64,000 bases of DNA from the IMG/VR virus record IMGVR_UViG_2617271072_000004, positions 32,726-96,725 of that record; one strand, written 5' to 3'. Under the pieces are notes generated by a model. It made no database searches, was not told where the DNA came from, and was given only the letters and a program-made list of their open reading frames with translations. Shown here piece after piece: positions 30,617 through 32,162 of the stretch. The stretch comes from a virus (taxonomy: Duplodnaviria; Heunggongvirae; Uroviricota; Caudoviricetes). A program made the position numbers and the translations under genes. Numbering within the stretch: the stretch's first letter is position 1; each line of letters starts with the position of its first letter.

Positions 30617-30760
30617 TGGTTATCCCTCAATAAAAGTGACATATTTATTAGATTGCGGTGCCGAGTGCCTCCCGGTGACGTTAACCAGTTAACAATTAAC
30701 GTCGGAATGTTTAACCATTAAGGAGGATTGTTTTAACTGTTCCGCGTGCGCTTAGCCGCA

Positions 30761-31545
30761 TTCACCGCAACGGAAAGAGCATTCCTGGTGGACCTGTAGA
30801 TTGGGATATGAACCCGTTACAGGAGAATGCTCTTACCTGTTACGTGCTCCGTTTCGTGGAGCTAACGGCGGGTGATCGGGCCGCACCAGACTGGACTTAT
30901 TTCAGCGTTATGCTCATGCCAGAGAATCAAACTGTGATGGTCGGTGCTGAACTCCGACACAGGGTTGTAGCAAGCCCCGCAAAGCGCGCACTACTGTAGT
31001 TGCGGCACATCAGCCTGTGCATTCACCACAATGTTGAGAACACTGGTTGTCACGCTGCAACGCAACATTTATTCGTAGATTGGGATATGACCCCGTTACT
31101 CCAGTGTTCTCAACGTTATAGTGCCGGTTACGGTTCCGGCCAGGCCTCTTCCTCAACGGGGTGTTCTCCATACGGACTACCGTTTATTGGTCGTTCCTGC
31201 GGTTTATGTTGTGAAGCCAGATGCTTATCTTCTGGTTGCTTCAAAGAGCTGCACTTCATCACAACGGTAAGAGCACTCGATGCATTTAAGCCAAGCCCCA
31301 TAAGGGAGAATGCCCTTACCTGTTGTGTTGTGATGACCGGTGCTGATCTCCGGCTTGCGGTTATTTCAGACTCTCACGGGCGTTTAATTGCCCCGCCGAA
31401 CAGCTCTTTTCCGCAATAGCTGCAATGTCTTTCGCGCATCAGCCTGCGCATTCATCACAACGGTAAGGGTACTTCGTAGGGATTCGAACCCTCTGCCAAG
31501 CTCGGCGATCTCCGACGTCGCAAAATACCCTTACCTGTTGTGCTG
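30761..31545. repeat. non-coding region with four copies of an imperfect inverted-repeat module (arms CACAACGGTAAGAG / CTCTTACCTGTTGTG, or ACAATGTTGAGAACACTGG / CCAGTGTTCTCAACGTTAT) around variable cores; a fifth half-copy near 31954..31984
   Basis: Direct reading of repeated arms and conserved core GTAGATTGGGATATGAMCCCGTTAC. Confidence 0.5.
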
Positions 31546-31619
31546 GTGCCGATTAACGGACTCGAACCGCTGACATCCTGCTTACAAGGCAGGCGCTCTA
31601 CCAACTGAGCTAAACCGGC
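31544..31619 (-). tRNA. tRNA-Thr (anticodon UGU)
   Basis: 76-nt cloverleaf GCCGGTTTAGCTCAGTTGGTAGAGC...CTTGTAA...GGTTCGAGTCC...CGGCACCA. Confidence 0.8.
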
Positions 31620-31621
31620 AT

Positions 31622-31697
31622 TGGCGATGGTGGATGGATTTGAACCATCGACCCGTTGATTAACAGTCAACCGCTCTAACCGCTGAGCTACACCATC
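31622..31697 (-). tRNA. tRNA-Asn (anticodon GUU)
   Basis: 76-nt cloverleaf GATGGTGTAGCTCAGCGGTTAGAGC...CTGTTAA...GGTTCAAATCC...CACCATCGCCA with perfect acceptor stem. Confidence 0.8.
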
Positions 31698-32162
31698 ACT
31701 TGCCGGGTACGTCTCCGGCGAGGGCTTCCACCTCCGTATGCTTTTCGGCGCACCGCGCCCTGGCTGCAATTCGGTAACAGGGGATGCATAACCCTGGCTT
31801 CCAGCGTGATTAGCGCTTTCAGCATGACGGGATATACCCGTAAATTCGTGGAACTGTACCCAAAGTGCTGTTAAGCACCGCTGTTACGCTGAAAAGAAAA
31901 CGCAACAGGAAAGGACGCTGACCAACAGATGGCCCCTTCTCGTTCATCTGGTTAATCACACCAGCGCCCTTACCTGTTGTGTCTCCCCGTTCCCTAATAC
32001 ACAGACGGGGACACTCTGCGGTCGATTTTTTGACGGGGGACGACTCATACCCCGTGGCGTCTGGCTTCTTAGGCCGCTACCATCATCAGATCATCGTTTG
32101 CATTTACTTTAATGGTCAGTTTCTAAACCGCCGCAAAGTCGCTAACCATGACGAAAACCCTG

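What the first reader, a model, noticed from the sequence alone, without database searches (positions are those of the whole stretch)
30620..32000. Repeat-rich ORF-free region around phage tRNA genes
Three tRNA genes (Ile-CAU, Thr-UGU, Asn-GUU) are embedded in non-coding DNA with four copies of an inverted-repeat module (arms about 14-19 bp around variable 40-60 nt cores) plus a tRNA-like 3' fragment (T-arm AGGGTTCGAATCCCT) at about 31470..31510. The arm sequence CCCTTACCTGTTGTG also directly abuts the tRNA-Thr gene. As I recall, P1 has additional protein genes in this interval, and they appear absent here. The modules could be small structured RNAs, processing signals or recombination scars.
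Basis: partly seen in the sequence, partly recalled or inferred. Interest (0 to 1): 0.45.

Follow-up and report, generated by a model that had tools for sequence, protein, structure and literature searches.

The report
Hairpin-clamped RNA cassettes beside phage tRNAs
The repeats around the P1 tRNA genes are five copies of an unannotated, widely shared phage RNA element: a long double-stranded "clamp", probably cut by RNase III, closing a small core that in several copies imitates one arm of a tRNA.

Summary
The repeats are real. A covariance model finds five modules, not four, and none elsewhere in the 64 kb window: M1 30765-30845, M2 31023-31124, M3 31259-31328, M4 31455-31543 and M5 31900-31982. 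All fit best on the minus strand. That is the sense strand of the C1-controlled ban-operon leader of a P1-type plasmid prophage.

The region is not ORF-free. The ORFs that P1 annotates as upl and plp are present on the opposite strand, but they behave like spurious calls.

Each module is a clamp helix of about 20 bp around a variable core. M1 and M2 belong to a three-way-junction RNA family found in over 100 lambdoid and P1-like prophage contigs. Covariation is strong: 22 of 27 pairs carry compensatory changes, reached by 0 of 500 shuffles.

The conserved apical hairpin, GGG-(N)UCAU(AN)-CCC, is identical in lambdoid phages to the anticodon arm of E. coli initiator tRNA. M4 and related modules carry T-arm look-alikes (UUCRANY loops). 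None is a tRNA gene, and none matches an Rfam family.

P1, P7 and D6 differ by exact recombination between clamp arms. A related clamp in E. coli K-12 Qin coincides with the published RNase III cut that makes the 190-nt DicF precursor.

Best reading: these are RNase III processing clamps that punctuate a leader carrying tRNAs and small RNAs. What the cores do is unknown.

The parts
30765..30845 (-). Module M1. A clamp helix of about 20 bp encloses a stem that carries the hairpin GGGUUCAUAUCCC (plus-strand 30803-30815). It belongs to the three-way-junction family but lacks the third hairpin.
   Evidence: Covariance model R1 scores it 64.4 bits, E 1.9e-18, on the minus strand, against 18.5 bits on the plus strand. 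Fold z is -3.72. The core motif is located.
31023..31124 (-). Module M2. A 23-bp clamp encloses the hairpin GGGGUCAUAUCCC (plus-strand 31082-31094) and a third hairpin.
   Evidence: R1 scores it 55.1 bits, E 2.3e-15. Inverted repeat I1 has 23-nt arms that are 87% complementary. Fold z is -5.04.
31259..31328 (-). Module M3. It has the same clamp arms (ACACAACAGGUAAGGGCAUUC / GAGUGCUCUUACCGUUGUG) around a different short core.
   Evidence: R1 scores it 26.9 bits, E 4.4e-6. Fold z is -4.44. It is absent from reference P1 and D6, and it is the only module after tRNA-Thr in P7.
31455..31543 (-). Module M4. Its clamp starts 1 nt after the CCA end of tRNA-Thr. The core holds a small hairpin and a T-arm look-alike, AGGG-UUCGAAU-CCCU (plus-strand 31478-31492).
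   Evidence: R1 scores it 21.7 bits, E 2.5e-4. Fold z is -4.74. ARAGORN does not call it a tRNA at default or 80% thresholds, and the Rfam tRNA model gives no hit at E<=10.
31900..31982 (-). A 21-bp clamp encloses a 41-nt core, about 200 nt upstream of tRNA-Asn on the transcript.
   Evidence: R1 scores it 26.5 bits on the minus strand and 24.5 on the plus strand.
31544..31697 (-). tRNA-Asn(GUU) at 31697-31622 and tRNA-Thr(UGU) at 31619-31544. These are the payload flanked by M5 and M4.
   Evidence: ARAGORN. The Rfam tRNA model scores them 74.5 and 72.9 bits.
31326..31462 (-). A 137-nt inter-module segment that is 98.5% identical to the PL-side leader of lambdoid and Stx phages (mEp460, Stx2a_1447). 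In those phages it precedes a DicF-like small RNA.
   Evidence: It is present together with M3 only in some P1 isolates.
30654..30769 (-). An STnc100-like structured leader directly upstream of tciA. It overlaps the 3' tail of the M1 clamp.
   Evidence: Rfam RF02076 scores 42 bits (gathering score 47), E 4.7e-7, covering model positions 31-147 of 206. The same element lies between DicF and dicB in Qin, and upstream of kilR in Rac.
32163..32256 (-). A DicF-precursor-like region that ends in an intrinsic terminator (stem 32190-32171 followed by U8). It is the first element after the ban promoter.
   Evidence: The P1 annotation 'dicF-like region' maps here. The terminator scan is. No Rfam DicF hit appears at E<=10.
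32351..32382 (.). The bivalent C1 operator (Op72, Oban) overlapping the ban promoters. It marks the start of the minus-strand transcript that contains all the modules.
   Evidence: The P1 and P7 annotations transfer by alignment.
30808..31419 (+). The antisense ORFs that P1 annotates as upl (30808-30999) and plp (31000-31419). They are probably not genes. The upl start codon, and an ATG inside the plp ORF at 31087, are each the reverse complement of the CAU in the conserved hairpin loop; plp as annotated starts at TTG 31000.
   Evidence: ORFs read from this ATG vary from 3 to 168 aa among relatives, with frameshift-like differences. Pfam gives no match. PLSDB's partial gene tables list no protein-coding gene here in the plasmid rows shown.

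Best explanation
The five inverted-repeat modules are RNA elements on the minus-strand ban-operon leader. That transcript runs from the C1-controlled promoter through a DicF-precursor-like RNA and its terminator, M5, tRNA-Asn, tRNA-Thr, M4, a 137-nt segment, M3, M2, M1 and an STnc100-like leader, and then into tciA-tciB-tciC, tRNA-Ile and ban.

Each module folds into a clamp helix of about 20-23 bp that closes a small structured core. The clamps most likely act as RNase III processing sites, and as end-protecting helices, that cut the long leader into discrete units: tRNAs, small RNAs and the downstream mRNA.

Because the clamp arms are near-identical direct repeats at the DNA level, they also serve as crossover points. 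This explains why P1-like phages differ in the number and order of cassettes.

Shown: the repeats, the structure and its covariation, the strand preference, the wide distribution of the family, and the arm-to-arm indels.

Inferred: transcription across the whole leader (taken from the P1 and P7 annotation of the ban operon), RNase III cleavage (by homology to the Qin site), and any function of the cores.
For: 1. Model R1 finds exactly five modules in 64 kb, all in this 1.25-kb leader. All score better on the minus strand.
2. Family-wide covariation is strong. In A1, 18 of 27 pairs carry double changes, reached by 0 of 500 shuffles. In A4, with 35 distinct sequences, 95.9% of cells are paired and 22 of 27 pairs carry double changes. 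That is 0 of 500 shuffles, and slid controls pair at only 40-52%.
3. The data favour RNA over DNA. There are 294 G.U pairs against 32 A.C mismatches in sense-strand folds, and the sense strand is the more stable in 52 of 63 cases. One clamp position is a U.G wobble in most sequences.
4. Clamps abut tRNA ends: 1 nt after the CCA of tRNA-Thr here, after tRNA-Ser in D6 and P7, in 21 of 141 distinct tRNA contexts against 6 in the offset control, and at the 5' end of tRNA-Arg in SPC32H.
5. E. coli K-12 Qin has a related clamp at L129 2173-2258 (R1 20.9 bits, E 1.3e-4; fold). The RNase III-dependent 5' end of the 190-nt DicF precursor (PMC10448788) falls about 190 nt from the DicF 3' end. That is near L129 2246, inside the clamp's 3' arm (2239-2258).
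6. Clamp length matches the roughly 22-bp duplex that RNase III accommodates (PMC6212723).
7. In alignment A2, reference P1 and D6 have M4 only, P7 has M3 only, and the window and OP279344 have M4, the 137-nt segment and M3. All junctions lie exactly inside the arms.
Against: - There is no transcript or cleavage data for P1 itself. The only RNase III anchor is a diverged homologue in Qin. Its cut position is inferred from the published 190-nt size, because the marked nucleotide in the supplementary figure could not be read.
- An intrinsic terminator sits between the promoter and the modules, so the extent of read-through is unknown.
- A pure processing role does not explain why the apical hairpin and its unpaired flanks are the most conserved part of the family while the clamp sequences turn over.
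- M3, M4 and M5 score only 22-27 bits, and M5 is nearly strand-symmetric.
- Alignment A4 was fitted to the model, which inflates the pairing counts.
Confidence: 0.6

Rival explanations
1. The cores are the functional part. After release from the leader, the clamp-protected RNAs act as mimics or decoys of tRNA arms and titrate a host or defence factor that reads those arms. M1, M2 and the lambdoid copies would mimic the initiator-tRNA anticodon arm, and M4 and the T2 modules the T arm. Candidate targets are a VapC-type nuclease that cuts tRNA-fMet, MetRS, the 30S P site, or enzymes that bind the T arm. This reading is compatible with RNase III processing of the clamps.
For: - The lambdoid hairpin GGGCUCAUAACCC is identical to the E. 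coli tRNA-fMet anticodon stem-loop, including its three G-C pairs.
- With all seven loop positions left free, clamp-verified modules keep N-UCAU-NN. The counts are CUCAUAA 64, GUCAUAU 19, UUCAUAU 8, UUCAUUG 6 and a few others. Only rare, weaker-clamp copies depart from UCAU.
- The three G-C pairs and the flanks AC and AAUC stay fixed while both enclosing helices covary. In part this reflects how the sequences were collected.
- T-loop-consensus hairpins (UUCRANY) with covarying stems recur in M4, L016, L083 and the lambdoid T2 modules.
Against: - The searches that collected the family fixed the GGG/CCC stem and the AAUC flank, so their invariance is partly circular.
- Only 3 bp of the anticodon stem are kept. 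The next two positions are mismatched.
- One P1-like phage (L005) has cleanly lost the 13-nt hairpin from its M1 copy.
- M3 and M5 have no tRNA-like feature.
- No partner protein is identified. The VapC, MetRS and ribosome ideas rest on general knowledge, not on any test done here.
Confidence: 0.2
2. The modules are primarily DNA-level elements. They would be recombination or cassette-exchange sites, attC-like or simply repeated homology, or leftovers of past rearrangements, with no role as RNA.
For: - The indels between P1, P7, D6 and the window begin and end exactly within the arms.
- Module number and order vary among P1-like contigs, as the hit positions show.
- There is an extrahelical base in one arm.
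- The layout of conserved arms and variable cores superficially recalls integron attC sites.
Against: - Minus-strand folds are consistently more stable, with a strong G.U over A.C bias and a conserved U.G wobble.
- The apical loop and the internal-loop nucleotides are conserved, which a recombination site made only of arms does not need.
- The arm ends (CACAAC and GTTGTG) do not fit the attC core consensus RYYYAAC / GTTRRRY (read directly from the sequence).
- The family keeps its structure between phages whose arms share little sequence.
Confidence: 0.08
3. The tRNA-like pieces and repeats are decaying remnants of a former phage tRNA gene array. They would be neutral debris next to the surviving tRNAs.
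For: - Related phages carry extra intact tRNAs in the same leader: tRNA-Ser in P7 and D6, and tRNA-Tyr in Ro157c2YLVW.
- M4 has a canonical T arm.
- The M1 copy in L005 has lost its hairpin.
Against: - Compensatory changes maintain both helices across more than 30 diverged sequences.
- The element occupies a fixed position, after a terminator and before the first early gene, in many unrelated lambdoid backbones.
- The mEp460-type leader occurs in 2615 of 5426 complete E. coli genomes.
- The clamps are not part of any tRNA.
Confidence: 0.07
4. The modules are cis-acting transcription elements, put-like processive antiterminators or insulators, that let RNA polymerase read through the terminators that accompany them.
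For: - Most family members lie immediately next to an intrinsic terminator hairpin.
- The lambdoid hosts inspected (mEp460, Stx2a_1447) show no N gene between the repressor gene and the module.
- The clamp 3' arm often reads UGCUCUU, which resembles boxA. The boxA consensus is recalled from memory and was not tested.
Against: - The module usually follows the terminator rather than preceding it.
- HK022 put RNA is about 70 nt with two stem-loops and sits just downstream of the promoter (PMC9378689), which is a different architecture.
- The boxA-like heptamer is buried in a duplex.
Confidence: 0.05

Closest known systems
RNase III processing site upstream of DicF in the dicBF operon of the E. 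coli K-12 Qin prophage (Faubladier et al. 1990; PMC10448788)
   Same: It is a long hairpin in the early-left leader of a temperate-phage operon, next to a small RNA. The Qin hairpin is hit by the model built from the P1 and lambdoid modules (20.9 bits, E 1.3e-4). It has similar arms (..AUAACGCGAAAGCGCAUGG / CCGUGCGCUUCCGGUUGUGG) and a UUCAUAG loop remnant in its core. The published RNase III-dependent 5' end of the 190-nt DicF species falls in its 3' arm.
   Different: The Qin copy is degenerate, with no GGG/CCC hairpin. The literature seen here describes the site by its cleavage position, not as a member of a repeated RNA family. There are no tRNAs in Qin's operon. Cleavage has not been shown for any P1 module.
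STnc100 (Rfam RF02076) and the related PasD prophage small RNAs (bioRxiv 10.64898/2026.05.13.724894)
   Same: It is a prophage-borne structured RNA closed by a long terminal helix. It lies in the same leaders, between DicF and dicB in Qin and upstream of kilR in Rac. A partial copy (30654-30769) directly follows M1 and shares its GUGAAUGC junction.
   Different: STnc100 is a different fold and sequence family. No module matches it or any other Rfam family. The window copy scores 42 bits, below the gathering score of 47, and lacks the outer helix of the model.
RNase III processing stems that flank stable RNAs in polycistronic precursors: rRNA operons, T7 early RNA, the lambda N leader, and the T4 tRNA cluster (from general knowledge)
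   Same: Duplexes of about 20 bp bracket or separate functional RNAs and mRNAs in one long transcript. Cleavage defines ends and affects expression of what lies downstream.
   Different: In those cases the stems bracket the functional RNA itself. Here the clamp closes its own small conserved core and sits beside the tRNAs. A conserved tRNA-arm-like apical motif is not a feature of those sites.
tRNA-arm mimics: the thrS operator (anticodon-arm mimic), bacterial Y RNA-like YrlA (RF02553), and viral tRNA-like structures (from general knowledge)
   Same: These are non-tRNA RNAs that display a hairpin copying a tRNA arm. In the best studied cases, a protein that normally reads the tRNA binds the mimic.
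   Different: No partner is known here. Only one arm is displayed per module. There is no Rfam YrlA hit on any module. The only YrlA hit lies on the real tRNA pair and is far below threshold.
HK022 put antiterminator RNA (PMC9378689)
   Same: It is a cis-encoded structured RNA in the early leaders of lambdoid phages that lack N.
   Different: put is about 70 nt with two stem-loops in a V shape, and it sits immediately after PL and PR. The modules are three-way junctions with a 20-bp clamp, and they usually follow a terminator.

Membership tests
tRNA gene (Rfam RF00005 / ARAGORN) | A cloverleaf with acceptor, D, anticodon and T arms that scores above the detection threshold. | tested here: not met
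   Only the three known tRNAs are found. M1-M5 and the lambdoid T2 modules give nothing at default thresholds. Only implausible calls appear at 65-80% thresholds.
Clamp and three-way-junction module family defined here (model R1) | A terminal helix of about 20 bp, an inner stem carrying GGG-NUCAUNN-CCC flanked by AC and AAUC, and an optional third hairpin. | tested here: met
   M1 scores 64.4 bits and M2 55.1 bits over the full model length. Covariation is shown. M3, M4 and M5 match only the clamp (22-27 bits), so they are clamp relatives with other cores.
E. coli RNase III substrate | An intramolecular duplex of about two helical turns (about 22 bp). | tested here: met
   Predicted clamps of 20-23 bp with at most one bulge or mismatch. 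The size criterion is from PMC6212723.
E. coli RNase III substrate | rnc-dependent cleavage in vivo or in vitro, leaving 2-nt 3' overhangs. | not testable with these tools
   The only evidence is indirect. The Qin homologue coincides with the published RNase III-dependent end of the 190-nt DicF species.
STnc100 (RF02076) | A score at or above the Rfam gathering threshold over the whole model. | tested here: inconclusive
   For 30654-30769 on the minus strand the score is 42 bits against a gathering score of 47, E 4.7e-7, covering only model positions 31-147 of 206. This applies to the neighbouring leader element, not to the modules.
DicF (RF00039) | A match to the DicF covariance model. | tested here: not met
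   No DicF hit at E<=10 in 29500-32500. The P1 'dicF-like region' resembles the upstream part of the 190-nt DicF precursor, not DicF itself.
Integron attC recombination site | Core sites RYYYAAC and GTTRRRY at the ends of an imperfect palindrome, with function in single-stranded DNA. | tested here: not met
   The arm ends read (A)CACAAC and GTTGTG(T/A), which break the consensus at two positions. The strand-asymmetric G.U pattern points to RNA. The presence of an integron integrase was not examined.
HK022 put RNA | About 70 nt with two stem-loops, located just downstream of the early promoter. | tested here: not met
   The architecture differs, being a three-way junction with a 20-bp clamp, and so does the position, after a terminator.
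Protein-coding genes upl and plp (P1 annotation) | A conserved reading frame and length among relatives, and similarity to a protein family. | tested here: not met
   Among relatives, ORF lengths read from the conserved ATG range from 3 to 168 aa, with frame changes between near-identical sequences. Plp-like products are 15, 74, 84, 96, 110, 114 or 123 aa. Pfam gives no match. Upl itself is 63 aa in most P1-like copies that keep M1.

The most novel reading that the evidence does not exclude
Temperate enterobacterial phages (P1-like, lambdoid, epsilon15-like) express, from their earliest promoters, a family of clamp-protected small RNAs. Their exposed hairpins copy single arms of tRNAs, above all the initiator-tRNA anticodon arm with its three G-C pairs and CAU. 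These RNAs would act as decoys or sponges for host factors or defence nucleases that recognise those arms. They would be an RNA-based counter-defence or translation-control device that rides on tRNA and RNase III processing.
Probability: 0.12. Interest if true: 0.85.

Novelty: new variant of a known kind. Interest (0 to 1): 0.6.

Why it matters
If the reading holds, three things follow.
1. A stretch of P1 annotated for 20 years as two protein genes (upl, plp) is really an antisense artefact over a chain of structured RNAs.
2. One RNA module family, absent from Rfam, links the early leaders of P1-like, lambdoid or Stx, and epsilon15-like phages. The mEp460-type leader that carries it matches about half of complete E. 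coli genomes (2615 of 5426).
3. The family gives a structural context for the long-known RNase III step in DicF biogenesis. It also suggests how phages package tRNAs and small RNAs as exchangeable cassettes.

The exact copy of the initiator-tRNA anticodon arm makes a simple hypothesis directly testable: do phages deploy tRNA-arm decoys?

Tried and rejected
- Rfam scans of the window region and of six lambdoid or epsilon15-like loci gave no family for any module. This held at gathering thresholds and at E<=1 to 10. The mir-142, mir-465 and tmRNA_permuted hits are far below threshold and are treated as chance.
- ARAGORN at lowered thresholds produced only implausible cloverleaves.
- The single genome-contig scan, with the loop left free (GACGGGN7CCCAATCC), was swamped by chance matches in unrelated phyla. 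Apart from one E. coli contig whose copy was clamp-verified, it gave no usable taxonomic range.
- K-12 CPS-53 was checked because the gene downstream of the lambdoid module is yfdP. Its leader is truncated and carries no module.
- Literature searches for the motif strings found nothing. The P1 genome paper is not held. Searches for P1 transcriptome or small-RNA data gave only gene-level results.
- The supplements of the RNase III mapping paper are not held.
- The put RNA idea was rejected on architecture.
- The attC idea was rejected on core-site consensus and strand asymmetry.
- The upl and plp coding hypothesis was rejected on ORF instability.
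Full report
**Context.** The window is a P1-type plasmid prophage. The stretch 30600-32370 is 97-99.8% identical to P1 isolates, JL22 and RCS47. It is 100% identical to E. coli plasmid NZ_CP010173.1.

Transferring the P1 and P7 annotations shows that the finding lies in the long leader of the C1-repressed ban operon. That operon is read on the window's minus strand. The order along the transcript is as follows:
- the bivalent C1 operator and ban promoters (about 32351-32396);
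- a 'dicF-like' region ending in a clean intrinsic terminator (stem 32190-32171 plus U8);
- tRNA-Asn (31697-31622) and tRNA-Thr (31619-31544);
- about 900 nt containing the repeats;
- an STnc100-like element (30769-30654; 42 bits against a gathering score of 47);
- tciA (a TerB-family protein), tciB (DUF3927) and tciC;
- the CAU tRNA (29907-29832), and then ban.

**The observation.** The repeat finder recovers the inverted repeats and their direct-repeat arms. The arm 15-mer and the core 19-mer are both over-represented relative to shuffles. Each module folds far better than shuffled sequence, and better on the minus strand (z from -3.7 to -5.0) than on the plus strand (z from -2.1 to -3.4).

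A covariance model built from the family (R1) finds exactly five modules in the 64 kb window:

| Module | Coordinates | R1 score (bits) |
|---|---|---|
| M1 | 30765-30845 | 64.4 |
| M2 | 31023-31124 | 55.1 |
| M3 | 31259-31328 | 26.9 |
| M4 | 31455-31543 | 21.7 |
| M5 | 31900-31982 | 26.5 |

The next best hit scores 11 bits. The arm that abuts tRNA-Thr is the 5' arm of M4, which starts 1 nt after the encoded CCA.

The interval is not ORF-free. Plus-strand ORFs at 30808-30999 and 31000-31419 are the P1 upl and plp annotations.

**Are upl and plp genes?** The upl ORF starts at an ATG that is the reverse complement of the CAU in the conserved hairpin loop, and the same ATG recurs inside the plp ORF at 31087 (the annotated plp starts at TTG 31000). 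Reading from that ATG in all related loci gives products of 3 to 168 aa. Frame and length change between near-identical sequences. The Plp-like products are 15, 74, 84, 96, 110, 114 or 123 aa. Neither ORF matches Pfam. PLSDB's gene tables, which are incomplete, list no protein-coding gene here in the plasmid rows shown. I treat both ORFs as antisense artefacts. Upl does keep 63 aa wherever M1 is intact.

**A shared RNA family.** Most are lambdoid prophages of about 40 kb.

In all of them the motif sits at the tip of the same architecture. There is a terminal clamp helix of 20-27 bp and an inner stem carrying a 3-bp G-C hairpin with a 7-nt loop. There is usually a third, variable hairpin.

The clamp and inner-stem sequences differ widely between lineages but stay paired. 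In a hand-picked alignment of 19 sequences, 18 of 27 pairs have double changes. No shuffle out of 500 reaches the observed values, and slid partners pair at only 41-51%. In a model-fitted alignment of 35 distinct sequences, 95.9% of cells pair and 22 of 27 pairs have double changes. The second alignment leans towards the model by construction.

G.U pairs outnumber A.C mismatches about 9 to 1 in sense-strand folds. The sense strand is the more stable in 52 of 63 cases. One clamp position is a U.G wobble in most sequences. This is the signature of an RNA read in the ban (or PL) direction, not of a DNA cruciform.

No Rfam 15 family matches any module at permissive thresholds. The motif strings occur in no held paper.

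**tRNA-arm look-alikes.** The lambdoid hairpin GGGCUCAUAACCC is identical to the anticodon stem-loop of E. coli initiator tRNA, whose sequence appears in PMC8887418. The match includes the three consecutive G-C pairs.

I rescanned with all seven loop positions free and kept only hits with a verified clamp. The loops were CUCAUAA (64), GUCAUAU (19), UUCAUAU (8), UUCAUUG (6), UUCAUAA (2), UUCAUAG (2) and AUCAUAU (1). There were also a few one-off loops in weaker-clamp hits, three of which still look related (CCCAUCC, CUCAUCC, UUUAUAU). So UCAU, equivalent to U33 plus the CAU anticodon, is nearly invariant. These scans still fixed the GGG/CCC stem and the AAUC flank, so the invariance of those parts is partly circular.

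A second recurring core motif is a T-arm look-alike with a UUCRANY loop:
- AGGG-UUCGAAU-CCCU in M4;
- AGAG-UUCGACU-CUCU in other P1-like contigs;
- GUCCG-UUCGAUU-CGGAC, with one compensatory variant, in 130-nt lambdoid 'T2' modules.

None of these is a tRNA gene. M3 and M5 share the clamp but have unrelated cores.

**Position and neighbours.** In lambdoid phages the module typically follows, within a few nucleotides, the terminator of a DicF-like small RNA. The terminator's U tract is drawn into the base of the clamp. The module precedes the first early-left gene by 20-120 nt. That gene varies and can be YfdP-like, RdgC-like, YfdR-like or TerB-like.

Clamps also abut tRNA ends. They directly follow the CCA of tRNA-Thr and tRNA-Ser in P1-like phages. 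In Salmonella phage SPC32H a clamp directly precedes the 5' end of tRNA-Arg.

The 137-nt segment between M4 and M3 (31326-31462) is 98.5% identical to the segment that precedes the DicF-like RNA in mEp460 and Stx2 phages. The mEp460-type leader matches 2615 of 5426 complete E. coli genomes.

**Recombination at the arms.** Aligning the region downstream of tRNA-Thr shows three states:
- reference P1 and D6 have M4 only;
- P7 has M3 only;
- the window and P1 isolate OP279344 have M4, the 137-nt segment and M3.

Every junction lies inside the shared arm sequence. The arms therefore act as crossover points.

**An experimental anchor.** E. coli K-12 Qin carries a degenerate module at L129 2173-2258 (chromosome 1,649,172-1,649,257). 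R1 scores it 20.9 bits, E 1.3e-4, and the fold shows a bulged clamp of about 19 bp. Its core keeps a UUCAUAG loop remnant.

Published work shows that a 190-nt DicF species depends on RNase III, which creates its 5' end (PMC10448788, citing Faubladier 1990). Counting 190 nt back from the DicF 3' end (L129 2435) gives position 2246. That lies inside the clamp's 3' arm (2239-2258). The sequence printed in that paper's Fig. S1B starts in the module core and runs through this arm. I could not read which letter is marked, so the placement rests on the 190-nt size.

The clamps here are 20-23 bp, matching the roughly 22-bp duplex that RNase III accommodates (PMC6212723). Qin also has an STnc100-type long clamp between DicF and dicB. 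In Qin and the lambdoid loci examined, DicF-type RNAs are therefore bracketed by clamp elements on both sides.

**Interpretation.** The best-supported account is that the modules are RNA processing and end-protecting clamps, probably RNase III sites. They would divide a long early leader into tRNAs, small RNAs and downstream mRNA. Their repeated arms incidentally promote cassette shuffling (confidence 0.6).

This account does not explain why the apical hairpin is the most conserved feature. A compatible second layer is that the released, clamp-protected RNAs act through their tRNA-arm mimics. This remains open (about 0.2 as a functional claim, and 0.12 for the specific decoy version).

Less likely readings are purely DNA-level sites, decayed tRNA debris, put-like antitermination and real upl/plp genes. 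The reasons are given under the rival explanations.

**Verdict.** The element is a member of an undescribed, widespread family of structured phage leader RNAs. The family's general kind is familiar (RNase III-type processing hairpins next to tRNAs and small RNAs). Its architecture, with tRNA-arm-like cores, is not. I score interest at 0.6 and rate it a new variant of a known kind.

Noticed in passing
window 32163-32256 (minus strand): Right after the ban promoter and operator lies a region similar to the upstream part of the 190-nt DicF precursor of Qin (hairpin CCGAGUUGCCAGGUUGACCAUGCGCCUAAGUGGCAACUCCG). It ends in a strong intrinsic terminator with U8. This implies a small RNA of about 170-190 nt, and that tRNA and ban expression need read-through. 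Rfam finds no DicF here.
   Followed up: partly
window 30654-30769 (minus strand): An STnc100-like structured leader (42 bits, gathering score 47) sits directly upstream of tciA. The same element lies between DicF and dicB in Qin and upstream of kilR in Rac, each time ahead of a cell-division or toxicity gene.
   Followed up: partly
window 31434-31451 and 31005-31022; also 30933-30956, 31204-31239 and 31329-31352: Small hairpins are repeated between the modules and show compensatory changes. One type is GCGCA-GGCUGA-UGCGC versus GCACA-GGCUGA-UGUGC, just after the 3' arms of M4 and M2. A second type, with loop AGNUCAGCA and stems CCGG/CCGG, CCAGA/UCUGG or UCGG/CCGA, occurs three times. These may be further structured units of the same leader.
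   Followed up: no
window 31326-31462: This 137-nt segment is 98.5% identical between this P1-type plasmid and lambdoid or Stx2 phages (mEp460, Stx2a_1447, 1720a-02). That is far above the surrounding similarity and points to recent exchange or strong constraint.
   Followed up: partly
L005 1524-1591 (phage vB_EcoM-Ro157c2YLVW): This phage's M1 copy has a clean 13-nt deletion that removes exactly the GGGUUCAUAUCCC hairpin and leaves the clamp and inner stem intact. The same phage carries an extra tRNA-Tyr between tRNA-Asn and tRNA-Thr.
   Followed up: no
L351 1538-1743 (Salmonella phage SPC32H, epsilon15-like): A 130-nt module with two T-arm-like hairpins ends exactly at the 5' end of tRNA-Arg(UCU). 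A DicF-like RNA with a terminator follows. The cassette family therefore extends beyond P1-like and lambdoid phages.
   Followed up: partly
L129 2173-2258 (E. coli K-12 chromosome 1,649,172-1,649,257, Qin prophage): An unannotated clamp hairpin lies between ydfC and dicF. It is related to the P1 and lambdoid modules and coincides with the published RNase III processing site of the DicF precursor.
   Followed up: yes
window 32069-32175 (minus strand): There is a weak Rfam hit to permuted tmRNA (26 bits, gathering score 47, E 0.011) that includes a ...UAAAUGCAAACGAUGAU... stretch. It is probably chance.
   Followed up: no
L004 1785-2490 (phage D6 record MF356679): The D6 record annotates its three tRNAs on the strand opposite to the one ARAGORN finds. 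It also flags the tRNA-Ser(UGA) as not called by tRNAscan-SE. P7 has the same tRNA-Ser, which is unannotated in AF503408.
   Followed up: partly
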